Shown here: positions 1,158 to 30,103 of the stretch, piece by piece | Position numbering within the stretch: position 1 is the stretch's first letter | How the letters are laid out: each line of letters begins with the position of its first letter | From: Escherichia phage AV102 | Strand: one strand, 5' to 3' | DNA length: 43,345 bases | Sequence record: OR352933.1 | Position numbers and translations under genes: made by a program | The notes under the pieces: model-generated | Told to the model about the DNA's origin: nothing | Databases searched by the model: none | What the model saw: only the letters and a program-made list of their open reading frames with translations

Positions 1158-2678
1158 CTACCGCTGCGCTGATACCGTCCAGCCAAAGTAGTGGTCCCCC
1201 GATACATTATTACGAACACGTATAATAATGTTCTGACCAGATACCTCAAACCAGAACGGGGCGTTGATATCTGTAGTAGGAGTTACCTGAACGTAGCGAC
1301 CTTGTAAGGCGCGCGATATACCGGTAGGTACAGTAACCGAGTTGGTCCCTGAAGCCATCTTAGCTGCCCCAGTATTATAAGTAACATACTGCGGGCAGTT
1401 CTCGATGGTGACAGCTGCATCGCTAGCATTACTTATTGCACCGTTTACATTACCTCGGGCATCTACGTTAACGAACTTAACACCACTACCAATACCGTCA
1501 GATATAAAGATCCCGTAACCTTGATTATTAAACTCGAATACAGGAGTTGCACCAGCCTTAACGTTTGTGAAGTTCACATTCTGCACCCCGGCCCCTAACT
1601 CTATTCCGTGCTTCTGTCCGCGGGTTGCCATACTGTTAGCATTACAACTGATGTTACTGAAGTTAATGCCTCCTACACTATAACCTGTGAGCAGTATCCC
1701 TGAGCCTTTATTGTTAACACAGGTCAGTCCGTTAAAGTTCAGGTTCTCAAGCCCACCATTCTCAGCATTAAGGTGTACTCCAGGATGTAATGCAGTCGTC
1801 CCACAAGAACTTCCCCAGCAACCGTTGAAGTTCAGGTCTGAGACACTGGCTCCCCCCATAGGGGCAAACATTAACCCACACTCCTTACAGGTATCGCCTA
1901 AGATAGCAGTGTAGAAACTCCCCCTACACTTAGTAGCACCAGACGGTAGCCAGGCGTAACCATACTTCATTCCCAAACAGTCGATGTTAGACGCATAGAC
2001 GCCAGAGGCATTGACCTCCTTAACCCCACATCCTTTACCACCTCCTGACAGTACTAGGTTCTGCAGGAACACATCCTGAACTACAGCCGAAGAGGTATCG
2101 CCTATCACAATAACATCTTCGCTAGTAGTTGCACCGTTAATGGTACAGTTGTTTACGCGGTAAATAAACTGCTGGGGACCGCCGTGCATCTTAAGGAAGT
2201 TATAGAAGGGACCATCTACACGAACATTCTCCAGGCATAAGTTGTATCCGTTAGTCCACGTAATGAAGTCGCCGCGCGTATGTGTCCCATCCACAATAAT
2301 TTGTAGGTCACGGATATGAACATTATTAATATTGGTAGATGCTGTACCGATGGCTGCAAAAGGCACGTTAATTGCAGAGTATAAAAGTACAGTGCTGCCC
2401 TGTCCTGCTCCCACCAAATGCACATTATTATAGAATGTAAGAGAGCCCTTTAAAGTCCATGTACCAGAAGGTACAGTTACGGCCCCTCCTCCTAGGCTGT
2501 GAGCGTGATTAATCGCGGCTTGGAAGGCAGCTCGTGAGTCAGTATTACCTGGAATAGCTCCGAAGTCTGCAACACTAATGTTATCCATTAGTTTAGACTC
2601 CATGGTACGTTCAACTGCACCTGTTGCAGACGCTTTCCAGTTAACTAACCATGTAGCCACTTTGGTAAGATTTAGCAT
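1158..2678 (-). CDS. Tailspike / receptor-binding protein with pectate-lyase-like beta-helix (probable capsule or polysaccharide depolymerase)
   Basis: 506 aa. N-terminal DFGAIPGNTDSRAAFQAAINHA...GGAVTVPSGTW resembles the pectate lyase superfamily signature; Gly/Asn/Ser-rich repetitive body with many Cys; last gene of the genome. Confidence 0.75.
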   Translation of the reverse strand: MLNLTKVATWLVNWKASATGAVERTMESKLMDNISVADFGAIPGNTDSRAAFQAAINHAHSLGGGAVTVPSGTWTLKGSLTFYNNVHLVGAGQGSTVLLYSAINVPFAAIGTASTNINNVHIRDLQIIVDGTHTRGDFITWTNGYNLCLENVRVDGPFYNFLKMHGGPQQFIYRVNNCTINGATTSEDVIVIGDTSSAVVQDVFLQNLVLSGGGKGCGVKEVNASGVYASNIDCLGMKYGYAWLPSGATKCRGSFYTAILGDTCKECGLMFAPMGGASVSDLNFNGCWGSSCGTTALHPGVHLNAENGGLENLNFNGLTCVNNKGSGILLTGYSVGGINFSNISCNANSMATRGQKHGIELGAGVQNVNFTNVKAGATPVFEFNNQGYGIFISDGIGSGVKFVNVDARGNVNGAISNASDAAVTIENCPQYVTYNTGAAKMASGTNSVTVPTGISRALQGRYVQVTPTTDINAPFWFEVSGQNIIIRVRNNVSGDHYFGWTVSAQR

Positions 2679-4492: not shown

Positions 4493-6348
4493 TATCGTCT
4501 TCCTCTATGTTGTTTGCCTCTACCCCGACTTTGCAGCCGTGCAGCGACTCCCCGCAACTGTTTCTGGACCATACCCTGCGCCCAGTCCAACGGGTTATTG
4601 ATGAATGCTAGTGCCTGCTTCTCAGACTCTCGTGCAGCTACCACTTTCTCGTCTTCTACTAGATGCCCGTTCAGTACTGCGACCATCATAGCGATGGCGT
4701 CTGCTCGGTCATCCTTAGCCAAGCTACCCCGGTCATACGTAATACCTGCGAGCTGTGCGAACGCAGAGTACAACCAGCGACGATCTCGGGAGTATCGCAT
4801 ACAAGTCCCAATATCATCGTGAATAGCACGCTCATGCACCACTAGGCGGTGTCGTCGAGTTACTGGGCTGATTGTGTCTATAATACGACGTTCTTTCTGC
4901 GTGGTGTTGTTAATGTCACGCACACCAATACCAGCAAGGCGACGCTCCCTCAGGCGGTTCAGAATCAACATAGACACAGTACCGTGCCCCATGTTACTCT
5001 CCACCACCATGTCAGAGATATCCAACTCTACGCACAAATCAATGAGCTTATCGATATTCTCAGTGCTTACGCCTCCTTGGAAACCCCCAACGGAGAACAA
5101 GTGAATGTATGAGTTTGCAGCCCCACCAGCAGCATAGGAGACTTCATCCCCACCACAACCAGCTGGGTCCACCACCAGCACCTTGTGCTGATACGGCAAG
5201 TGCATATCTCCGTAGAATGCCGGGAAGTACATCTGCTGACCCATAATCCCCTCATGCTCGTGCTGGTATAAGTACCGGCGGTCCGCAATATAGGAGAAGG
5301 TCTCTGGGGAGGAATCCTGGCTACCAGAGTAAACCAGCATATCCGAAAGCTTGATACGTGTACGCATCTGGTCGGACAGGGTTGTGTCGAGCATGTACTG
5401 CAGCTGGAAGCCTTCCGGACCAAAGTCCAGCTCCTTCTCAATCAGCGCATCCTCGTCATAGCGCCCGGGGTCCGTGCTCTCCCCTAGCGTCCCGTCGACA
5501 CCGAAGCCGGTGCGTTTATAGCCGCGCTCAATAAGCTCCAGGATATAAGGAGCAAGTGTACTTCCATATCGCTCTTCCATTTCAACAGACGGAATGCGCC
5601 CAGGCCACACGCGGACCTCGAAGCCACGTCCCGGCAGTGTTTTATAGATACTGTCCTTGGTCTGTGGTGTACCCAGGTACAGCGTATCCCCGTGCGTACA
5701 GATGGCCGCGAAGTCTTTAGAAATCGTCAGCAGCTGCTCGCGCTGGGTTTGCGTTAAGCCGTTCTTGGTGGTCTCGATATCGTCCGGAATCAGTAGGTCC
5801 GCACGCTTCCCCTGTAGGGATGCAGTGATACCTACACAGGCTACGCTGGCGGACTTATCCAGAGGTTTCAGGTCACAGTGTACGTCGTAACCTTCAAAGG
5901 AGGTTCGGTCCCCACGTGTAGGGTCAGCCTTCAAGTAGCACAGCAGCGGCCAGGTTTCCAGCATCCGAATGATTAAGTTTGCTACATCGGAAGCCTGCTT
6001 CTCAGCACCCGACACAATCAGGATACGGCAGGATTGGTCCTGGATGAGCCTCCAGACAGCGTAGAGCGCAGCTAGTGTAGACTTAGCCTCACCACGCTGT
6101 GCAGCCACCATGCGCTTCCTAGGGCCCTTCTGCATATACTCCGCAATGTCGGCTTGCATGTCCGTGAGCGTAAAGCCTAGGAAGCGCATGCCTATATATG
6201 CGAACTCCCTGAAATTACTGAGGGTAGCCGCCATCATCATGGCGATATCCTCGCGCTCCTCTTTGGGAATACTGCGCGGGTTCGCATTATAACCAGTAAG
6301 TTTCTGGTTGAGCATGCGCAGTCTTCGCGCAGTCTTCACCGATACCAT
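4492..6348 (-). CDS. Terminase large subunit (DNA maturase B)
   Basis: 618 aa; size and position after the small terminase match T7 gp19-like arrangement. Confidence 0.8.
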   Translation of the reverse strand: MVSVKTARRLRMLNQKLTGYNANPRSIPKEEREDIAMMMAATLSNFREFAYIGMRFLGFTLTDMQADIAEYMQKGPRKRMVAAQRGEAKSTLAALYAVWRLIQDQSCRILIVSGAEKQASDVANLIIRMLETWPLLCYLKADPTRGDRTSFEGYDVHCDLKPLDKSASVACVGITASLQGKRADLLIPDDIETTKNGLTQTQREQLLTISKDFAAICTHGDTLYLGTPQTKDSIYKTLPGRGFEVRVWPGRIPSVEMEERYGSTLAPYILELIERGYKRTGFGVDGTLGESTDPGRYDEDALIEKELDFGPEGFQLQYMLDTTLSDQMRTRIKLSDMLVYSGSQDSSPETFSYIADRRYLYQHEHEGIMGQQMYFPAFYGDMHLPYQHKVLVVDPAGCGGDEVSYAAGGAANSYIHLFSVGGFQGGVSTENIDKLIDLCVELDISDMVVESNMGHGTVSMLILNRLRERRLAGIGVRDINNTTQKERRIIDTISPVTRRHRLVVHERAIHDDIGTCMRYSRDRRWLYSAFAQLAGITYDRGSLAKDDRADAIAMMVAVLNGHLVEDEKVVAARESEKQALAFINNPLDWAQGMVQKQLRGVAARLQSRGRGKQHRGRR

Positions 6349-6656
6349 TAGACAATTCCTTCTAGTAAGTCCTCAGAGTCTGAACCACTAATCTTGTTTA
6401 AAATCTCTTTCTTACGCGCCTCTCTGCGCGCCGCTAGTTCGTCATCGAATTCATCACGTAGCTCCTGCATCTCCTCGGAATCTGCATCGGCGGTGATGTC
6501 ATTGTCTTTCAGGAACTTGGCAATAACAGATTTATCGGCAGCCGGTAAAGGGACCGCATCTTCCCCGGCCTGACGCAGCTCCTCAATGAGCGCCTCCGTG
6601 AACATTCGGTGCAGGTCACTGAGTCTGCTACGCGTTCCTGCCTTGGATACAGCCAT
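6348..6656 (-). CDS. Terminase small subunit (DNA maturase A), putative
   Basis: 102 aa acidic protein immediately upstream of and overlapping the large terminase; position equivalent to T7 gp18. Confidence 0.55.
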   Translation of the reverse strand: MAVSKAGTRSRLSDLHRMFTEALIEELRQAGEDAVPLPAADKSVIAKFLKDNDITADADSEEMQELRDEFDDELAARREARKKEILNKISGSDSEDLLEGIV

Positions 6657-6665
6657 AAACCCTCC

Positions 6666-7007
6666 TTACCAACCCACGGTGTAAATCAAAGTACCCGCTG
6701 GGAGTTCACTGGCGAAAGTTACAGTAGCACCGCTGAGCGTGTAGCTATAGCCGGGAATCTGAATAATCCCATTGATGTAGATATCTACATCAGTGTAGGT
6801 GTTAGTTAAGGTAAAGGTAGTCCCTGCCTTGGATACAGTCAGGTACGCCGATGTACGGACACCCGGCTTAAGCGGCTTACCCCCAGCAGTGCTGCCGTCT
6901 CCAATAGTCAAAGTGTTGCTAGTGGTCAGAAGAACCAACTCCCCGACCTTCAACACCTTGGTTGCCACTACGGCATCAGCACCTCGGCGTAGTTGTAAAG
7001 TTGGCAT
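6666..7007 (-). CDS. Small tail fibre-like protein, paralog of 7020-7466
   Basis: 113 aa; N-terminus MPTLQLRRG...GEL...GDGSTAGG matches the conserved tail-fibre N-terminal motif shared with the upstream ORF. Confidence 0.55.
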   Translation of the reverse strand: MPTLQLRRGADAVVATKVLKVGELVLLTTSNTLTIGDGSTAGGKPLKPGVRTSAYLTVSKAGTTFTLTNTYTDVDIYINGIIQIPGYSYTLSGATVTFASELPAGTLIYTVGW

Positions 7008-7019
7008 TTCTACCCCCTA

Positions 7020-7466
7020 TTAGGTAATGACACCCAGGTCAATATTTCCCAACGTAGTAGCGATGGTAACAGCAACTGAGCCATCAAAGTTAGCTGTACC
7101 AGTAACGGCACCAGACAATGCAATAGCTCTGGCAGTAGTCAGCTTAGCAGCACTACCCGTGGTGTTGACACTAGCAGTACCGGTTAGCAAACTTGCTGGG
7201 ACAGCGGTAACTGCAAACGTAATGTCAGCACTACCGTCGAAACGTCGAGGGGCCGCCGTAATACCGGAGAAGCCAATAGTTCGAGCAGTCTTCAGTTTAT
7301 CGGCGGTGGATGCCGGGGTACCGGCACCTACCGGGAAGCCACCTGCGGTTGTACCATCACCCACGTAGATAATTTTAGCGGTGCTGTCATACACCAGCTC
7401 CCCGGCAAGCGGGATATACTTAGAGACCTGGGCGGTAGTCCCACGTTTAAGTTGTAAAGTTGGCAT
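7020..7466 (-). CDS. Small tail fibre protein with two internal fibre repeats
   Basis: 148 aa; N-terminus MPTLQLKRG...GEL...GDGTTAGG; two internal repeats KLKTARTIGFSGITAAPRRFDGSADITFAVTAV and KLTTARAIALSGAVTGTANFDGSVAVTIATTL typical of phage tail fibre repeats. Confidence 0.6.
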   Translation of the reverse strand: MPTLQLKRGTTAQVSKYIPLAGELVYDSTAKIIYVGDGTTAGGFPVGAGTPASTADKLKTARTIGFSGITAAPRRFDGSADITFAVTAVPASLLTGTASVNTTGSAAKLTTARAIALSGAVTGTANFDGSVAVTIATTLGNIDLGVIT

Positions 7467-8218
7467 CAGAGTTCTCCTAAGTCCATGTTATATACATACT
7501 CTTTTAAGTCGTCGAACTCAGACCGTGACACTGCATCCAAGTCCGTCGAATCCTGTCCGATACGCACAGATACTACTGTACCAGCCGGAATTGTCTCAGC
7601 CAGGATAATCTGGTTGTTCGCAATACTGAACCCGTAACCGATATCCTGGTGCACCCCATCAAGATACAAGGTGGCGCGAGTAAATCGGTACGGCGGGCTG
7701 ATGGTATTAGTCGGGACCGTGGTAACAGTACACCACGGGATAGTCACATCATCCGTGTTTATACCCTGCTCAAGCGCGGTTACACGGGCATCTACCGCAT
7801 CCAGTTGTCCCTTGTTTACAGCGTCGCCAGGATTAACACCATCCCCAAGATTGGTAATCCGGTAGCCGTTCATGCTTATATCCCCGTAGAATCCGGGGAT
7901 GGCCCTACCCTCCACCATCTCTTGAGCTAAGTGTAAGAACTGTGTGTTTTGAGAGTCTACGTTCACCTCGATGAATGGGGAACCACTAGCAAACTCAATG
8001 TACAGATACTCGCGCTCAGTCTTGCGAATGAGCAGTACCGTCGTATCCGCTGTTAAGGCTGTGTTCAGCCTAATATTTGTAGAGCTGGTCCAGGTGTACC
8101 CAGTGGTTTCAACGCCGTCGAGATATACATGAATATAGGACTTGTCCAAATACTCAATATCACACTGGATATCCTGGGTACCAGCTGGCTTGATTTGCTC
8201 TTGCCAGCTGTACGCCAT
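7466..8218 (-). CDS. Tail fibre adaptor protein (homolog of the T7 gp17 N-terminal tail-attachment domain)
   Basis: 250 aa; position directly after the gp16-like gene; N-terminal region resembles T7 gp17 N-terminus; no enzymatic or distal domain. Confidence 0.7.
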   Translation of the reverse strand: MAYSWQEQIKPAGTQDIQCDIEYLDKSYIHVYLDGVETTGYTWTSSTNIRLNTALTADTTVLLIRKTEREYLYIEFASGSPFIEVNVDSQNTQFLHLAQEMVEGRAIPGFYGDISMNGYRITNLGDGVNPGDAVNKGQLDAVDARVTALEQGINTDDVTIPWCTVTTVPTNTISPPYRFTRATLYLDGVHQDIGYGFSIANNQIILAETIPAGTVVSVRIGQDSTDLDAVSRSEFDDLKEYVYNMDLGEL

Positions 8219-8219
8219 A

Positions 8220-11200
8220 TTAATCGTCTCCGAAGTTATTGATGATAGCTCTCGTAGGTGCGAATTCCTGGACCAATGGGACCTGCTTAGTGAAGGTCTG
8301 GATATCCATATTTCCAGTAGCCAGGTCCTGTACCGCCCCCAGTAGACCCGTAACGTAACCCATAGACGCCAGCGAGTGACGTGGAGAGTCCCCAGTGAAG
8401 ATATCCTGCAGAAGCGAGATACCGCCGATGGCGCTCATACCCATAACCGACTCAGCGATAAGCTTCTGAGTGTCGGCCTCTTTGCCGTCCATACCGTGCT
8501 TCGCTATAGTAGCGAGTAGCATCAGCGGGAACTGGTACGCCATGATGTGTGCAACCCCAATCCACCCAGCATCGTTCAGTTCTCGGCGCAGAATCTTGTT
8601 GGTGGCAGCCAGGGCGAAGCTCTGGTAGCCAACGATTACTTTACCAATAGGGTTAAACTGTGCGAAGTGTGAGGTCTCACCGGTACGTACTTGCTGCACC
8701 AGATAATCCATCATTCTGGTACCTACCACCTCAATTTGCATTTGCAGGTCCGGCTGGAACATAGCACCAGGATTAGCTTTGTTAGCAGCAATAGCCCGGT
8801 CAGCGATTTCACGAGTAAGACCGAAACGTTCCAGACGCTTAAACGCCTCAGCGTCGCCCTTGAACATCTGCTGGAGTTCATCCGCTACAATACCTGAGTT
8901 AAGGTTAACCTGCAGTCGATGTACCATACTCATACCGTTGACGTGACGCGCAGCCTGTCCAACGTTCTGGGTGACGTTAAACCAGGAAGCCTGACGGGTC
9001 AGGTCCAAGTTATCGTCTGCGTAGGTATTCAGCCAGCGGAAGCGCATCTCCTTCTGGATACTGCCACGTAGGATTGTATCCAGGCGACTAGCCATGTCCG
9101 GATTACGAATAGCTACGGCACCCTCTTTAAACCAGGGCTGCTCACGCATACTGCGGAGTACTCGGGACATACCAAACTCTTTCAGCGCTAGAGCGGTGTC
9201 AGTAAGCTGGTACAACCCAGAGTTCTTAAGCATGGTAGCGTTGGCCATGTTACCGGCTGCACGGAGCAGGTCCGGCATTTGACCGGCGTCGGCTGGTGCT
9301 CCACCCAGGATAAAGTCAATGGTGTCATTAACGGTCTTCTCCCACTTACCCGAATCGGCTAGGGCGTGTTTGGACTCGTTAATCATCGTCTCCAGCATCT
9401 TGAGGTCAGATACCCCAGCATAAGCCATACCTACACGACCTGACATACGATTGGTGTAACCGTGCATTACCTTGGCTACATCAGTATCCATCAGGTCCTG
9501 CATACGCATAGCCTGACCATCCACGATGTACTCTTTGTCCATGTTGAAGCGGGTACGTTGACGGAGGTTCTTAGCAGGCGAGGTAGCGCCAGATTCTCGG
9601 ACATTACCTGCCAAGAAACTCTGGATTGCACTCTCGTCTACGCCAGCATTACGCATGGCCATAACCACTTCATCATTACCCATACCATTGATGAGTTGCT
9701 TCCACATAGGACCAGAGGCCGAGGAGCGTCCGTTGTAGATACCATCAACCATCTCCTTAGCAACACGTTGAACGACCTCAGGTTCCATAGACGGATACAC
9801 GTCACGTAATGCCTGGCGGAATAAATCTCGGTAGTTATCCAGGGAGCGACCGTTCGCAATACCTTGGCGCATCTTATCGTAGCTGTACTGGCGTGGGAAG
9901 TAGTAGTCTGATTTAATCAGAGTACCTTCATCCACTAAACCGGCAGCGGTCATGTGGTCATGCCACTTACTAGCCCAACCAGAGTTGCGATACGCCTCAA
10001 CAAGCGGAACTAAGTCAGAGTCCGGCAGAGGTACAGGGCGTCCATTAACCTCAGCGCTGTATGCAGAGTCCAAATAACGGCCCAAGCGGTCTTCTAAGTC
10101 AGCGCGAGCTGCTCGGAAGTTGCTACGATGGAAGAAGCGGTCCGTGAAACCTACACCTTTGGCCTTGAGGGCACCAAGTATAGCATCCTCAACTACACTG
10201 GCACTAGCGTCCATCTCCAACGTAAGATTACGTTTGAAGTCCACCACAGACGGTTTACGACCGCCTACAGCAGTAGCGTCAGATACTAATAAGCGTGCCA
10301 GGTCCTCACTACCCTCTGCGATGTTATCATACAGGGAGAACATAGTGGCGAACTTGCGCTTAGCAGTTTCCATCATAGCTTGGGCCTTCAAGGCCTCATG
10401 CTTAACCGATGTATCCGCCAAGTCCTGGAAGGCCTCACTCCGGAAGCTCTGAGCTTGGTCTGCGTAGTCCTTTGCGGTCCACTTGACAGCGTCCTCGTAC
10501 GCGTCCAGAACATCCTCCAGGGCCGAACCCTTGGTACGGACCCCAAGCGCATTCATGATGTACTCACCAATCTGGCGGAGCATGCTTTTACCGGTAGGGG
10601 ATTTAGTTCTAGAGAGGTATTCTACCCACTCAGGGCTGTCGCCTAGTCCGGCCAGCATCTCGTGCACGTCACTGGCATAATACTTAAATTTATCACTAAG
10701 AGTTGAATCTGCTGCTATTGCAGCGCGCACCTCTTCCAGCTTACTAGCAATTTCAGGATTCTGCTTGATGGCTCTGGTGGTGGCAGCGTGAATCAACTCG
10801 TGCACTGCTACTCGGCTAGTGTCCGCATCCATAGCACGCAGAGCATCCCCGGCAGTAGTCCAGGTACTTCCGTTCGCTTTCTTAGGGGCACGTAAAGATA
10901 TAAAACCCCTATCAGTTGTTGATGCTGGTGAAAATCCATAGTGACTACGGTTAGAAGAACCGGCCACCAGTTTAAAGTCGATATCCTGTACTGCGTCACC
11001 CAGGGTGTCCAGGATAGCCTTCTGACCTTTAGATAAGTGTTCAGAGGTCTTGAGGAAACGGACTACGTCCTGCGCTTTCATGTTAACAGCAGCAGTGTTA
11101 TTCCGGCGAACTTGGATAGGTTCATCCAGTACCTTAGTGAGTATTGTGTCCCCTTCTCCTACTCCTGTAACATTAGCATCCCTTGCTGTACGAGTTGTGG

Positions 11201-29233: not shown

Positions 29234-30103
29234 TTAGGCTTGCGGTGCAGCAGGCGCTGCGGGGGCTGCAGGAGCCACTGGCGCTGCCGGTGCTACAGGG
29301 GCACTTGGTGCTGCTGGTGCTACTGGAGCACTCGGTGCCGCTGGTGCAGTGGGCGCAGCCGGGGCTGCGGGGGCTGCAGGAGCAGCCGGGGCCTGCATAG
29401 ACTGAGGACTCGGAACCGAACCAGCATTCAGCATAATATCCAACGCACTGCCTGGGAAGTCTACGGCCTTGTACATGTCCTCCTGAATCCAGTTTTTACT
29501 CTTACCATCATCCTTGGTACCTTCGATATACAAGCTATCCCAGGTTTCTTTGGTAGGGTTGTTCCACAAGAACAGCTTAATCTCGGAAGCATCCAGCTCA
29601 GGCATTTTAATCGGCTCACCGGTATTCGGGTCGAACTTCGGAATCGGACGGATTGCCGCGAGGTCTACAATGTTGGACTTCTTACCCGCTGCGCTGGTGT
29701 GCTCATCCACCTGGAATACAAATGCTTGTCCCAGTCGCTGTGCAGCATGCTTAATACTGCCATCGTAGTTGAGCTTGTCGAAGAACTTCTTGAAGCCCGC
29801 ACGCTCAAAGTTGCTAATAGTCATCGGATACGGACGGATACGCTTCACCTCACCGTTCGGGCCGTACACCACAATCCCGATGCGAACGTTCGCCGCGGCA
29901 GGCTTACCGGTAGGCTTACCACCTTTAGTCGGCAGGCGCTTACCAATTTCCACGTACTCAGTAAAGTAACCGTAGTACTCACCCTTCGGCAGAAGCACAT
30001 CCTCATACGCACCACCCTGGGCGGTTTCGGTCATATCAACTTCTTGGGTTTCAATCGCAGCAGCAACCAGGGAGTTCAGAGTGTCCAGTGCATTCATAGT
30101 CAT
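29234..30103 (-). CDS. Hypothetical protein with C-terminal Pro-Ala repeat tail; possibly a DNA-binding or SSB-like protein by position
   Basis: 289 aa; last ~50 residues are PAAPAAPAAP-type repeats ending in PQA and stop; position between replication genes. Confidence 0.55.
   Translation of the reverse strand: MTMNALDTLNSLVAAAIETQEVDMTETAQGGAYEDVLLPKGEYYGYFTEYVEIGKRLPTKGGKPTGKPAAANVRIGIVVYGPNGEVKRIRPYPMTISNFERAGFKKFFDKLNYDGSIKHAAQRLGQAFVFQVDEHTSAAGKKSNIVDLAAIRPIPKFDPNTGEPIKMPELDASEIKLFLWNNPTKETWDSLYIEGTKDDGKSKNWIQEDMYKAVDFPGSALDIMLNAGSVPSPQSMQAPAAPAAPAAPAAPTAPAAPSAPVAPAAPSAPVAPAAPVAPAAPAAPAAPQA
29237..29395 (-). repeat. Tandem GCN/CCN-rich nucleotide repeats encoding the Pro-Ala tail
   Basis: Repeated gctgcaggagc / ggtgctgctggtgc units on the plus strand within the CDS 3' end. 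Confidence 0.7.

What the first reader, a model, noticed from the sequence alone, without database searches (positions are those of the whole stretch)
6666..8218. Modular receptor-binding locus: gp17-like adaptor plus two tandem small fibre paralogs, with the tailspike at the other end of the late operon
The 250-aa fibre protein has only the tail-attachment part of a T7-type fibre. Two short ORFs follow that share a near-identical N-terminal motif (MPTLQL(K/R)RG...GEL...GDG(T/S)TAGG) but differ in their C-termini, one with duplicated fibre repeats. The beta-helix tailspike is encoded about 5 kb away, after the terminase and lysis genes. This suggests a branched or exchangeable receptor-binding apparatus and recent duplication.
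Basis: partly seen in the sequence, partly recalled or inferred. Interest (0 to 1): 0.45.

Follow-up and report, generated by a model that had tools for sequence, protein, structure and literature searches.

The report
Three-piece snap-together phage side fibre
In this T7-like (Drulisvirus) phage the short tail-fibre adaptor and the two small genes after it most likely snap together head-to-tail into one segmented fibre. The proposed joint is a short C-terminal "plug" peptide that fits an N-terminal "socket" domain, and the same sequence pattern is found at fibre joints of phage T4 and Bordetella phage BPP-1.

Summary
Window 6666-8218 (- strand) holds a 250-aa T7-gp17-like anchor and two small ORFs, A (148 aa) and B (113 aa). 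A and B share only an N-terminal Mtd_N domain. The pectate-lyase-like tailspike lies at 1158-2678.

The window is about 96.5% identical to Escherichia phage Minorna, where these ORFs are annotated only as putative tail fibres. An anchor paired with a distant tailspike is the known KP34-group-A architecture.

What is new is how the small ORFs fit in. The anchor and ORF A both end in Φ-D-x-G-x-Φ (NMDLGEL, NIDLGVIT). ORF A and ORF B both start with Mtd_N. ORF B, the last gene, has no such tail.

In viral contigs sampled only by an Mtd_N core peptide, 25 of 33 distinct tightly linked upstream genes end in this motif, against 0.4% of background ORFs. Natural fusions keep the motif just before Mtd_N. 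BPP-1 Bbp9→Mtd and T4 gp36→gp37 fit the pattern.

Best reading: a non-covalent chain anchor→A→B. A is a stalk of variable length. B is a cap carrying a T4gp10-like docking domain.

"Exchangeable" and "branched" are supported. "Recent duplication" is not supported. No virion or binding data exist.

The parts
7466..8218 (-). Anchor / tailspike adaptor, 250 aa, homologous to the KP34-type 'tail fiber' and to HRP29 gp44.
   Evidence: Pfam PF03906. phrog_2710, E=4e-102. PDB sequence hits 23sh_r gp9 (E=2.5e-100) and 8es4_G HRP29 gp44 (E=7.8e-83). Its stop codon overlaps the ORF A start by 1 nt (TGATG).
7784..8218 (-). Anchor residues 1-145: the T7 gp17 N-terminal tail-attachment domain plus a short YadA-stalk-like neck.
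   Evidence: Pfam PF03906 over residues 13-140 and PF05662 over 120-156. Residues 1-120 are 95-100% identical to KPV811 and IK_ECO1.
7550..7702 (-). Anchor residues 173-223: T4gp10-like branching (docking) domain.
   Evidence: A profile of this domain hits the same region of 8vbx_R, 8es4_G, 23sh_r, 9k4a_A, 7y22_e and 6w4q_A. Latka 2019 maps the T4gp10-like fragment to aa 186-242 of KP34-type anchors.
7469..7489 (-). Plug 1: the anchor's C-terminal tail NMDLGEL (residues 244-250).
   Evidence: Present only in anchors that are followed by an Mtd_N ORF (window, L008, L009, L011). Absent from HRP29, KPV811 and IK_ECO1. One of only 2 motif-ending ORFs among 178 in the window.
7020..7466 (-). ORF A, 148 aa: a connector/stalk subunit made of an Mtd_N socket, two fibre repeats and a plug.
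   Evidence: Shine-Dalgarno sequence AGGAG lies upstream. Homologues of 96-235 aa keep both ends.
7329..7466 (-). Socket 1: the Mtd_N domain of ORF A (residues 1-46).
   Evidence: PF18454, E=3.5e-12. AF2 pLDDT is 87-95 over residues 1-40. The model superposes on Mtd 1yu1/1yu3 at 1.4-1.6 Å over 45 residues.
7206..7307 (-). ORF A fibre repeat 1 (residues 54-87).
   Evidence: Self-alignment. PHROG fibre and decoration families match in two stretches.
7053..7154 (-). ORF A fibre repeat 2 (residues 105-138), similar to the C-terminal part of the phage L Dec protein.
   Evidence: 6e3c_C Dec protein, E=8e-8, query residues 82-140. Self-alignment.
7023..7046 (-). Plug 2: the ORF A C-terminal tail NIDLGVIT (residues 141-148).
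   Evidence: Conserved as (I/V)DLG(V/T)L in all close ORF A homologues. The second of the only two motif-ending ORFs in the window.
6666..7007 (-). ORF B, 113 aa: the terminal subunit, made of an Mtd_N socket and a T4gp10-like β-sandwich, with no plug.
   Evidence: dN/dS is 0.23 against Minorna.
6870..7007 (-). Socket 2: the Mtd_N domain of ORF B (residues 1-46).
   Evidence: PF18454, E=1.5e-8.
6669..6839 (-). ORF B residues 57-113: a paralog of the anchor's branching domain.
   Evidence: phrog_2710 positions 193-247. PDB hits 9k4a_A 118-171 (E=7.7e-9), 23sh_r 191-240, 8vbx_R and 8es4_G. Identity matrix.
6348..6656 (-). Small terminase subunit. It marks the downstream border of the exchangeable cassette.
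   Evidence: Minorna annotation. Homology with other Drulisviruses resumes here.
1158..2678 (-). Tailspike (RBP2), 506 aa, with a pectate-lyase-like β-helix and a short hydrophobic N-terminal peptide MLNLTKV.
   Evidence: PF12708. Annotated as tail spike in Minorna. N-termini of related tailspikes compared.

Best explanation
Proposed structure: the locus encodes a segmented, non-covalently joined side fibre built on the tailspike adaptor.

1. The trimeric anchor binds the tail through its T7-gp17-like N-domain.
2. The anchor's T4gp10-like domain docks the N-terminal peptide of the distantly encoded tailspike, as in KP34-type phages.
3. The anchor's last seven residues (NMDLGEL) act as a 'plug' that engages the N-terminal Mtd_N 'socket' of ORF A.
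4. ORF A is a short trimeric β-helical stalk whose length varies by repeat number. It ends in a second plug (NIDLGVIT), which engages the Mtd_N socket of ORF B.
5. ORF B has no plug and so ends the chain. It displays a second T4gp10-like β-sandwich. This is either the distal tip or a second docking site for the tailspike.

What is shown and what is inferred:
- Shown: the domain content, the gene order, the conservation, the mosaic origin of the cassette, and the strong, sequence-level association of the plug motif with a following Mtd_N gene.
- Inferred: physical plug-socket binding, presence of A and B in virions, and which gp10-like domain holds the tailspike. I favour the anchor's domain at about 55%, ORF B's or both at about 40%.
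For: Within the window:
- Exactly two ORFs of 178 end in D.G.[LIVMFY].{0,3}$ and exactly two start with Mtd_N. They are consecutive genes: anchor, A, B.
- The genes are translationally coupled or tightly packed, each has its own Shine-Dalgarno sequence, and there is no internal - strand terminator.

Conservation of the set:
- The same three-gene set occurs in the diverged contigs L008, L009/L010 and L011. Both plugs are conserved there, and ORF B lacks a plug in all of them.
- Anchors that have no A/B downstream (HRP29 gp44, KPV811, IK_ECO1) lack the plug.

Generality of the plug-socket pattern:
- Unrelated upstream proteins in Ep4, phiB1_1, GP100 and L013-L023 also end in the motif directly before an Mtd_N gene.
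- An independent sample was drawn using only the peptide GDGTTAGG. The motif is found in 35 of 78 upstream ORFs, and in 25 of 33 distinct tails when the genes abut. The background is 10 of 2480. Odds ratio about 770, Fisher p about 4e-45.
- The motif uses all four Gly codons and both Asp codons, and lies 11-72 nt from the next start codon. It is therefore a protein-level signal, not a ribosome-binding site.
- Natural fusions keep the motif 5-6 residues before Mtd_N (L083, L055).

Experimentally anchored cases that fit:
- BPP-1 Bbp9 ends in LADLGGIA, directly upstream of mtd. Mtd sits at the ends of the tail fibres (PMC2408619).
- T4 gp36 ends in QDFGYY, and this is invariant in T4-like phages down to 40% gp36 identity.
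- The gp37 N-terminus matches the Mtd_N profile (hhalign 82%, E=1e-5).
- Trimeric gp36 binds the N-terminal region of gp37 (PMC3004832).

ORF A and ORF B as real, structural genes:
- ORF A homologues vary from 96 to 235 aa by repeat number but keep both ends.
- ORF B-like proteins elsewhere are followed by tailspike or fibre genes (L013, L148, L149/150).
- Reading frames are kept across saturated synonymous divergence.
Against: - There is no virion proteomics, no binding data and no complex model for this phage or for Minorna.
- The Mtd_N junction has never been seen in a solved structure. The PDB holds Mtd_N only in isolated Mtd and HylP crystals.
- About half of the Mtd_N genes in the unbiased sample have no adjacent plug-bearing gene. 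One large family follows an ORF ending RTKxFMKKRK.
- The loci are phylogenetically related, so the p-values overstate independence.
- The ORF B structure model was poor (pLDDT 44).
- The tailspike N-terminus (MLNLTKV) does not match the KP34 MALxxLV heptapeptide exactly, so its docking site is not settled.
- T4 gp37 does not reach Pfam's Mtd_N threshold.
Confidence: 0.6

Rival explanations
1. Linear chain ending in the tailspike. ORF B is a dedicated docking adaptor, and the tailspike's N-terminal peptide binds ORF B's T4gp10-like domain rather than (or as well as) the anchor's. The order would be anchor→A→B→tailspike. This keeps the plug-socket joints and changes only where the enzyme sits.
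For: - In L013 and L148 a B-like protein is followed directly by a tailspike with Tail_spike_N and pectate-lyase domains.
- In L149/L150 a B-like protein sits between two large fibre genes.
- ORF B's domain is homologous to the branching domains that dock second receptor-binding proteins.
Against: - The anchor keeps its own branching domain, conserved with the HRP29 and KP34-type anchors that carry tailspikes without any A/B.
- L011 has both A/B and a KP34-like MALTGLI tailspike N-terminus.
- ORF B's domain shows no special co-variation with the tailspike or the anchor.
Confidence: 0.3
2. Two alternative fibres. ORF A and ORF B each bind the anchor's plug independently and compete for it, giving a mixed population of short fibres rather than a three-piece chain.
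For: - Both carry the same Mtd_N socket.
- No strict plug-socket specificity code could be read from the sequences.
Against: - ORF A has its own conserved plug in every lineage and ORF B never does. This is unexplained if nothing binds behind A.
- The A-specific and B-specific Mtd_N signatures are conserved across lineages.
Confidence: 0.12
3. Non-structural helpers. ORF A and/or ORF B are fibre-assembly chaperones encoded next to the fibre gene and absent from virions.
For: Fibre chaperones are often small and encoded just downstream of fibre genes (general knowledge). There are no virion data.
Against: - No chaperone family matches.
- All Pfam, PHROG and PDB hits are to structural fibre, decoration or receptor-binding protein parts.
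- Mtd_N is the N-terminal domain of proteins known to be on virions: Mtd, HylP and, probably, T4 gp37.
Confidence: 0.05
4. Decaying remnants of a longer fibre gene (such as the 502-aa IK_ECO1 fibre), split by mutations and no longer functional.
For: 250+148+113 = 511 aa, close to the 502-aa fused fibre of IK_ECO1.
Against: - IK_ECO1's distal part is not homologous and has no Mtd_N.
- Each ORF has its own ATG and Shine-Dalgarno sequence.
- The split set is conserved, with intact frames, in lineages whose synonymous sites are saturated.
Confidence: 0.03

Closest known systems
KP34virus (Drulisvirus) group A anchor-branch receptor-binding system (Latka et al. 2019, PMC6872550; tested in phage KP32 (KP34 RBP2 used as donor) by Latka et al. 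2026, PMC13352976)
   Same: - A truncated first receptor-binding protein with a T7-gp17 N-terminal anchor and a T4gp10-like branching fragment.
- An enzymatic β-helix second receptor-binding protein encoded after the terminase and lysis genes.
- A short hydrophobic N-terminal peptide on that second protein.
   Different: - KP34-type anchors (about 307-318 aa) are followed directly by terS and end in an α-helical tail without the plug.
- Here the anchor is 250 aa, ends in NMDLGEL, and is followed by two extra Mtd_N genes.
- The tailspike starts MLNLTKV, not MALxxLV.
T4 long-tail-fibre distal half: the gp36-gp37 joint (Leiman et al. 2010, PMC3004832)
   Same: - A small trimeric subunit (gp36) whose C-terminus ends in D-F-G-Y-Y.
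- It is encoded directly upstream of, and is known to bind, the N-terminal region of the next subunit (gp37).
- That N-terminus resembles Mtd_N (hhalign 82%).
   Different: - A myovirus with long fibres.
- gp37 does not reach Pfam's Mtd_N threshold.
- A monomeric knee protein (gp35) and chaperones take part.
- The interface has not been described at residue level in any paper or PDB entry I could find.
Bordetella phage BPP-1: fibre protein Bbp9 plus the major tropism determinant Mtd
   Same: - Mtd is the founding member of Mtd_N.
- It sits at the distal ends of the tail fibres.
- The upstream fibre gene ends in ...LADLGGIA.
   Different: - Mtd carries a C-type-lectin tip diversified by a retroelement.
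- Only one joint, with no connector subunit.
- A different phage family (Rauchvirus).
phiKMV-like Ar-KM fibre complex gp44-gp47 (bioRxiv 10.64898/2026.05.18.726046)
   Same: - A 251-aa T7-like anchor fibre followed by several small, fast-evolving ORFs.
- Those ORFs are present in virions by mass spectrometry and are proposed to form a flexible fibre complex.
   Different: - The joint there is an N-terminal hydrophobic helix of gp45 inserted into the anchor's knob, with a 3:1 symmetry mismatch.
- It is not a C-terminal plug meeting an Mtd_N socket.
Anchor → Mtd_N fibre → β-helix modules of Pseudomonas phages Ep4, phiB1_1 and GP100
   Same: The anchor ends in PLD(F/M)G(S/A/V)L directly before a fibre gene that starts with Mtd_N. 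A β-helix protein completes the set.
   Different: - One long Mtd_N fibre (292-307 aa) with its own tip, rather than a connector plus a cap.
- The β-helix gene is adjacent to the fibre gene, not displaced to the end of the operon.
- The anchor's C-terminal domain is unrelated.
SP6 / K1-5 gp37-type adaptor and G7C gp66/gp63.1 branching
   Same: T4gp10-like domains serve as docking sites for short N-terminal peptides of tailspikes (as summarised in PMC6872550).
   Different: Those systems branch from one adaptor polypeptide. None uses Mtd_N-capped connector subunits.

Membership tests
KP34virus group A anchor-branch RBP system | First RBP with a T7 gp17 N-terminal anchor domain. | tested here: met
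   PF03906, E=1.6e-17. 23sh_r and 8es4_G hits.
KP34virus group A anchor-branch RBP system | T4gp10-like branching fragment near the C-terminus of the anchor. | tested here: met
   Residues 173-223 are homologous to the same region of KP34-type anchors, HRP29 gp44 and PhiM1 gp47, and to the N-terminal region (residues 34-78) of 6w4q_A. Direct similarity to T4 gp10 itself was not detected by sequence and rests on Latka 2019.
KP34virus group A anchor-branch RBP system | Enzymatic second RBP encoded after the terminase and lysis genes. | tested here: met
   506-aa PF12708 protein at 1158-2678, after the endolysin.
KP34virus group A anchor-branch RBP system | Conserved N-terminal heptapeptide MALxxLV on the second RBP. 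| tested here: inconclusive
   The window has MLNLTKV, which is hydrophobic with similar spacing but not the motif. L011 has MALTGLI, and L008 has MLTKLV.
KP34virus group A anchor-branch RBP system | Anchor gene directly followed by the small terminase (two RBP genes only). | tested here: not met
   Two extra genes, ORF A and ORF B, lie between the anchor and terS. KPV811, HRP29 and IK_ECO1 have none.
Mtd_N (PF18454) N-terminal domain proteins | Score above Pfam's gathering threshold, positioned at the N-terminus. | tested here: met
   ORF A 46.5 bits and ORF B 34.9 bits against a cut-off of 26.3; residues 5-40 in both.
Mtd_N (PF18454) N-terminal domain proteins | Fold like the N-terminal domain of Mtd. 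| tested here: met
   The ORF A model (pLDDT about 90 for residues 1-40) superposes on 1yu1/1yu3 at 1.4-1.6 Å over 45 residues. The ORF B model was too poor to test.
Plug-socket fibre joint (T4 gp36-gp37 / BPP-1 Bbp9-Mtd type, as defined here) | The upstream subunit ends in Φ-D-x-G-x-Φ within 0-3 residues of its C-terminus. | tested here: met
   Anchor NMDLGEL and ORF A NIDLGVIT.
Plug-socket fibre joint (T4 gp36-gp37 / BPP-1 Bbp9-Mtd type, as defined here) | The next gene starts with an Mtd_N(-like) domain and is tightly linked. | tested here: met
   1-nt overlap between anchor and A; 12-nt gap between A and B.
Plug-socket fibre joint (T4 gp36-gp37 / BPP-1 Bbp9-Mtd type, as defined here) | Physical binding of the C-terminal tail to the Mtd_N trimer. 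| not testable with these tools
   Only monomer prediction was available. No solved structure contains the junction.
phiKMV-type multi-subunit fibre (Ar-KM gp44-47) | The next subunit's N-terminal hydrophobic helix inserts into the anchor's C-terminal knob. | tested here: not met
   ORF A starts with an Mtd_N β-domain, not a hydrophobic helix. The anchor's C-terminus is a gp10-like domain plus a tail, not a knob.
phiKMV-type multi-subunit fibre (Ar-KM gp44-47) | The small downstream ORFs are virion components. | not testable with these tools
   No proteomics exist for Minorna or this phage.
Tail-fibre assembly chaperones | Match to a known chaperone or assembly family. | tested here: not met
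   No such hits in Pfam or PHROGs. All hits are structural.

The most novel reading that the evidence does not exclude
The C-terminal Φ-D-x-G-x-Φ tail and the N-terminal Mtd_N domain would together form a universal, portable 'plug-and-socket' joint. Tailed phages of very different kinds would use it to bolt separately encoded fibre segments together: T4 gp36→gp37, BPP-1 Bbp9→Mtd, Drulisvirus anchor→A→B, Pseudomonas and marine phages.

The assembly order of multi-gene fibres could then be read from sequence. A protein with a socket only is a terminal piece. A protein with both socket and plug is a connector. Fibres could be re-wired by swapping pieces at the joint.

In the Minorna lineage, ORF A would be a length-tunable spacer and ORF B a chain terminator that carries a second docking platform.
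Probability: 0.5. Interest if true: 0.75.

Novelty: new variant of a known kind. Interest (0 to 1): 0.55.

Why it matters
- Host range of therapeutic podophages is set by these receptor-binding assemblies, and current engineering relies on the anchor, branching-domain and conserved-peptide rules.
- A second, sequence-readable joint (plug tail plus Mtd_N socket) would explain what the many small "putative tail fiber" ORFs next to adaptors do.
- It would let annotators order multi-gene fibres without structures, and it would offer a natural splice point for modular fibre design.
- It gives a concrete, testable residue-level hypothesis for the gp36-gp37 junction of T4, for which I found no residue-level description in the PDB copy or the searchable literature, and for how Mtd is held on BPP-1 fibres.
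- For this phage specifically, it predicts a fibre in addition to the tailspike. That may matter for infection of hosts such as the E. coli K-12 strain on which its close relative Minorna was isolated.

Tried and rejected
- Ribosome-binding-site artefact. The plug codons of the anchor (GAC TTA GGA GAA CTC) contain the AGGAG Shine-Dalgarno sequence of ORF A. Across 30 distinct loci, however, the motif uses all four Gly codons and both Asp codons, lies 11-72 nt from the next start, and holds an SD-like string in only 9 of 30. Fusion proteins also keep it. Rejected.
- Recent duplication. Rejected by the ortholog/paralog identity matrix.
- Split or decayed long fibre. Rejected.
- Concerted evolution between ORF B's domain and the anchor's branching domain, as a clue to a shared ligand. 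There is no clear signal. Only L011_B is as close to its own anchor (53%) as to other B domains.
- Fold search with ORF B. The AF2 model was too poor (pLDDT 44, 3-sequence alignment), so it was not searched.
- A solved structure showing the joint. An Mtd_N profile against the PDB and Foldseek with the ORF A model return only isolated Mtd and HylP crystals. T4 gp36 has no PDB entry.
- Literature. Searches for Mtd_N or Mtd combined with tail fibre and N-terminal domain, for Bbp9, and for gp36/gp37 with cryo-EM found no description of this joint. The search library is incomplete, so this is not proof that it is unpublished.
- The search for related loci with the 20-sequence Mtd_N alignment failed because no stretch was conserved enough. 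It was replaced by a degenerate DNA pattern for GDGTTAGG.
- Plug-socket specificity code. For example, DYG plugs might pair with KGG sockets, but L017 breaks this pattern. Left open.
- The HRP29 cryo-EM entry as a model for where the tailspike docks. The tailspike chain gp52 is not in the PDB copy under its own sequence.
Full report
**Identity of the window.** All genes lie on the - strand and GC skew is negative throughout. The region 6300-8500 is 96.5% identical to Escherichia phage Minorna (Autographiviridae, Slopekvirinae, Drulisvirus). About 250 other records, mostly Klebsiella Drulisviruses, match only the flanks: the internal virion protein with the 5' half of the anchor gene, and terS/terL. 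In Minorna the three genes are annotated 'tail fiber protein', 'long tail fiber protein distal subunit' or 'putative tail fiber protein', and 'putative tail fiber protein'. The genome announcement does not discuss them.

**The observation.**
- The ORFs are the anchor (7466-8218, 250 aa), ORF A (7020-7466, 148 aa) and ORF B (6666-7007, 113 aa).
- The anchor has the T7 tail-fibre N-terminal domain (PF03906, E=1.6e-17) and a YadA-stalk-like neck.
- ORF A and ORF B both pass Pfam's threshold for Mtd_N. They align only over their first 53 residues (47% identity, E=3e-12).
- ORF A's residues 54-87 and 105-138 are a real duplication (score 73 against 25.8±4.7 for shuffles, 0 of 2000). The second copy resembles the C-terminal part of the phage L Dec protein (6e3c_C, E=8e-8). 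From my own knowledge that part is a trimeric β-helix stalk.
- ORF B's residues 57-113 are homologous to the region of KP34-type anchors that Latka et al. call T4gp10-like. They also match similar domains in K64-1/RaK2 fibres, a K1 depolymerase (9k4a), HRP29 gp44, PhiM1 gp47 and the 6w4q_A tail-fibre chain (which I recall as CBA120 TSP2).
- The anchor carries the same domain at residues 173-223.
- The tailspike (1158-2678, 506 aa, PF12708) follows terS, terL, two small ORFs, spanin, holin and endolysin.

**Known background.** Latka et al. 2019 (PMC6872550) describe KP34virus group A. It has an anchor of about 300 aa with a T7 N-domain and a T4gp10-like fragment, and a depolymerase encoded five to eight genes away that carries an N-terminal MALxxLV peptide. 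Phage engineering has shown that the branching domain and the conserved peptide are both required to incorporate the second receptor-binding protein (PMC13352976). HRP29 gp44 (8ES4) is a solved 'tailspike adapter' of this kind. The adaptor with a distant tailspike is thus already known. The two small genes are not part of that scheme. KPV811, HRP29 and IK_ECO1 have terS directly after the anchor or fibre gene.

**The set is conserved, old and exchangeable.**
- ORF A homologues lead to metagenomic contigs with the same order. That order is anchor (252-287 aa), A (96-150 aa), B (112-114 aa), terS, terL, lysis genes and a tailspike of 603-643 aa. The contigs are L008, L009/L010 and the distant L011.
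- Orthologous Mtd_N domains are closer (A-A 65-76%, B-B 63-80%) than the paralogs within a genome (43-57%; L011 is the exception at 72%). The duplication therefore predates these lineages.
- Frames and lengths survive saturated synonymous divergence. Against Minorna, dN/dS is 0.09 for the anchor, 0.23 for B, 0.04-0.08 for the neighbours, but about 0.9 for A. ORF A has 12 non-synonymous against 5 synonymous changes, all in the stalk repeats.
- The anchor is a mosaic. Residues 1-120 are 95-100% identical to KPV811 and IK_ECO1. Residues 121-250 are nearer to L008/L009 (56-78%) than to KPV811 (20-49%).
- So [anchor C-half + A + B] moves as a cassette between the conserved anchor N-domain and terS.

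**The key finding: the ends of the proteins.**
- The anchor ends in NMDLGEL and ORF A ends in NIDLGVIT. ORF B ends in IYTVGW.
- In L008, L009 and L011 the anchors end in NMDLGEL or PIDLGKLP, the A proteins end in (I/V)DLGVL(T), and the B proteins have no such tail.
- Anchors without A/B lack the tail.
- In the window, only these two of 178 ORFs end in D.G.[LIVMFY].{0,3}$, and only ORF A and ORF B begin with an Mtd_N-like motif.
- The same pairing occurs with unrelated upstream proteins:
  - Ep4, phiB1_1 and GP100 (PLDFGSL, PLDFGAL, PLDMGVLP before a 292-307-aa Mtd_N fibre).
  - L013 (LDMGVI → A-like protein ending DLGAL → B-like protein → tailspike).
  - L014-L018 (anchor ending D-Y-G-(E/T/V)-L → 94-99-aa connector ending (V/L)D(L/M)G(T/V)L → 184-186-aa tip protein; in L017 the anchor is followed directly by a 219-aa tip protein).
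  - L019-L023.

**An unbiased test.** I scanned viral contigs for the DNA pattern encoding GDGTTAGG, which places no condition on neighbouring genes.
- Of 78 N-terminal Mtd_N ORFs with an upstream ORF, 35 follow a protein ending in the motif (27 of 54 distinct tails).
- Among upstream genes whose stop lies within 20 nt of the start, the figure is 25 of 33 distinct tails.
- Background ORFs of at least 100 aa give 10 of 2480 (0.4%). Odds ratio about 770, Fisher p about 4e-45. Relatedness among loci inflates this.
- The near-misses are conservative (E for D, N for D).
- The signal is at the protein level. All four Gly codons and both Asp codons are used, the motif lies 11-72 nt from the next start, and only 9 of 30 contain an SD-like string.
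- In natural fusions the motif sits 5-6 residues before the Mtd_N domain: L083 NYDFGTF-LAPASQ-RFRLRRG and L055 TIDGGTG-AAPLK-RIQLRRD.
- P0063 has two Mtd_N domains, a gp10-like domain and a terminal VDGGNF, so it is a connector with both kinds of end.

**Two experimentally anchored joints fit.**
- BPP-1: the fibre protein Bbp9, encoded directly upstream of mtd, ends in LADLGGIA. Mtd is located at the ends of the tail fibres (PMC2408619).
- T4: gp36 ends in QDFGYY and gp37 starts MATLKQIQFKRS...EGELAIN.... This start aligns to my Mtd_N profile with 82% hhalign probability (E=1e-5), although Pfam's own model does not detect it.
- Leiman et al. 2010 state that trimeric gp36 binds the N-terminal region of gp37 (PMC3004832).
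- In T4-like contigs whose gp36 is only 40% identical overall, the tail (Q/E/I)DFG(Y/T)Y(S) and the first 50 residues or so of gp37 remain nearly invariant.
- No solved structure shows this joint. The PDB holds Mtd_N only in isolated Mtd and phage hyaluronidase crystals, and gp36 is absent.
- Literature searches found no description of it.

**Mechanism proposed.** The fibre would be built as follows.
1. The anchor trimer sits on the tail. Its gp10-like domain docks the tailspike's N-terminal peptide. This is inferred by homology to the KP34 and HRP29 systems. The tailspike N-termini here are short and hydrophobic (MLNLTKV, MLTKLV, MALTGLI).
2. The anchor's C-terminal plug engages ORF A's Mtd_N socket.
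3. ORF A forms a short β-helical stalk. Its length varies between relatives by repeat number (96, 133, 148-150 and 235 aa) while both ends are kept.
4. ORF A's plug engages ORF B's socket.
5. ORF B lacks a plug, so it caps the chain and shows a second gp10-like domain.

Supporting details:
- The 1-nt stop/start overlap of anchor and A (also in L008, L009 and Ep4), the 9-12-nt gaps, the individual Shine-Dalgarno sequences and the absence of internal - strand terminators fit co-expression at matched levels.
- The ORF A model has a confident N-domain (pLDDT 87-95) that superposes on Mtd at 1.4-1.6 Å.

**What remains open.**
- It is unclear whether the tailspike sits on the anchor's domain, on ORF B's, or on both.
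- B-like proteins elsewhere are followed by a tailspike (L013, L148) or by large fibre genes (L149/150). This favours an adaptor role for B.
- The retained anchor domain, and the phages that carry tailspikes without A/B, favour the anchor.
- Pairing specificity (why A rather than B binds the anchor) and self-polymerisation of A cannot be judged from sequence.
- The ORF B model was unusable. The B family is rare: about ten clusters with the full architecture among 1.84 billion representatives.
- There are no virion data for Minorna. In the analogous phiKMV-like phage Ar-KM, the small ORFs after the 251-aa anchor are virion proteins by mass spectrometry, but they use a different joint.

**Verdict.**
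- The locus is a new variant of the known anchor-branch system.
- The more interesting result is the plug-socket rule it exposes. It is strongly supported as a sequence association and fits two classical joints, but it is not yet shown physically.

Noticed in passing
window 29234-30103 (- strand), repeat at 29244-29401: A 289-aa ORF (phrog_862, unknown function) ends in a tract of about 55 aa of P-A-A / P-S-A / P-V-A triplets. The tract is encoded by a 9-nt periodic repeat with 14 overlapping copies.
   Followed up: partly
window 7020-7466 versus Minorna gp10 (L001 6022-6468): ORF A shows 12 non-synonymous against 5 synonymous differences (dN/dS about 0.9), all in the two stalk repeats. Neighbouring genes have dN/dS of 0.04-0.09. 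This suggests relaxed or diversifying selection on the stalk surface, but the counts are small.
   Followed up: partly
Minorna genome announcement (PMC6554615): The paper calls Minorna a 'myophage', compares it to 'T1-like' phages and predicts headful packaging. The genome is a T7-like Drulisvirus encoding an RNA polymerase. The phage was isolated on E. coli JE-1 carrying the IncA/C plasmid pRA1, and whether infection depends on the plasmid is not stated.
   Followed up: no
L154-L177 (T4-like viral contigs) and L151 (T4): The gp36 C-terminal tail (Q/E/I)DFG(Y/T)Y(S) and the first 50 residues or so of gp37 are the most conserved parts of these proteins, even where gp36 identity falls to 40%.
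   Followed up: yes
L033, L035, L038, L041, L044 and other loci: About 19 of 54 distinct Mtd_N genes follow a 110-145-aa ORF that ends in RTKxFMKKRK, with a 42-75-nt gap and no plug motif. This is a separate family whose plug partner, if it has one, is not adjacent.
   Followed up: no
L005 4871-6481, L006 4874-6559, L007 1787-3298, L014-L018: The β-helix proteins encoded after the Mtd_N fibre share a conserved N-terminus, MSTLR(x)(D/T)xLxTxDxxY, across Slopekvirinae, Krylovirinae and Zobellviridae phages. It is probably another portable docking peptide.
   Followed up: no
L014-L018 and L002 (IK_ECO1 fibre): The 184-186-aa Mtd_N tip proteins of L014-L016 and L018, and the 219-aa tip protein of L017, end in ...(Y/F)I(R/E)ARR(V/I/A)R. 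This is the same C-terminal ending as the fused 502-aa IK_ECO1 fibre (...GYIRARRVR). The same tip module therefore occurs both covalently fused and as a separate Mtd_N-capped subunit.
   Followed up: partly
window 7027-7368 (+) and 6799-7023 (+): Antisense ORFs of 113 and 74 aa overlap ORF A and ORF B. The 113-aa ORF has no PHROG match (the 74-aa ORF was not searched), and both are most likely shadow ORFs of the Ala/Thr/Gly-rich genes on the other strand.
   Followed up: partly
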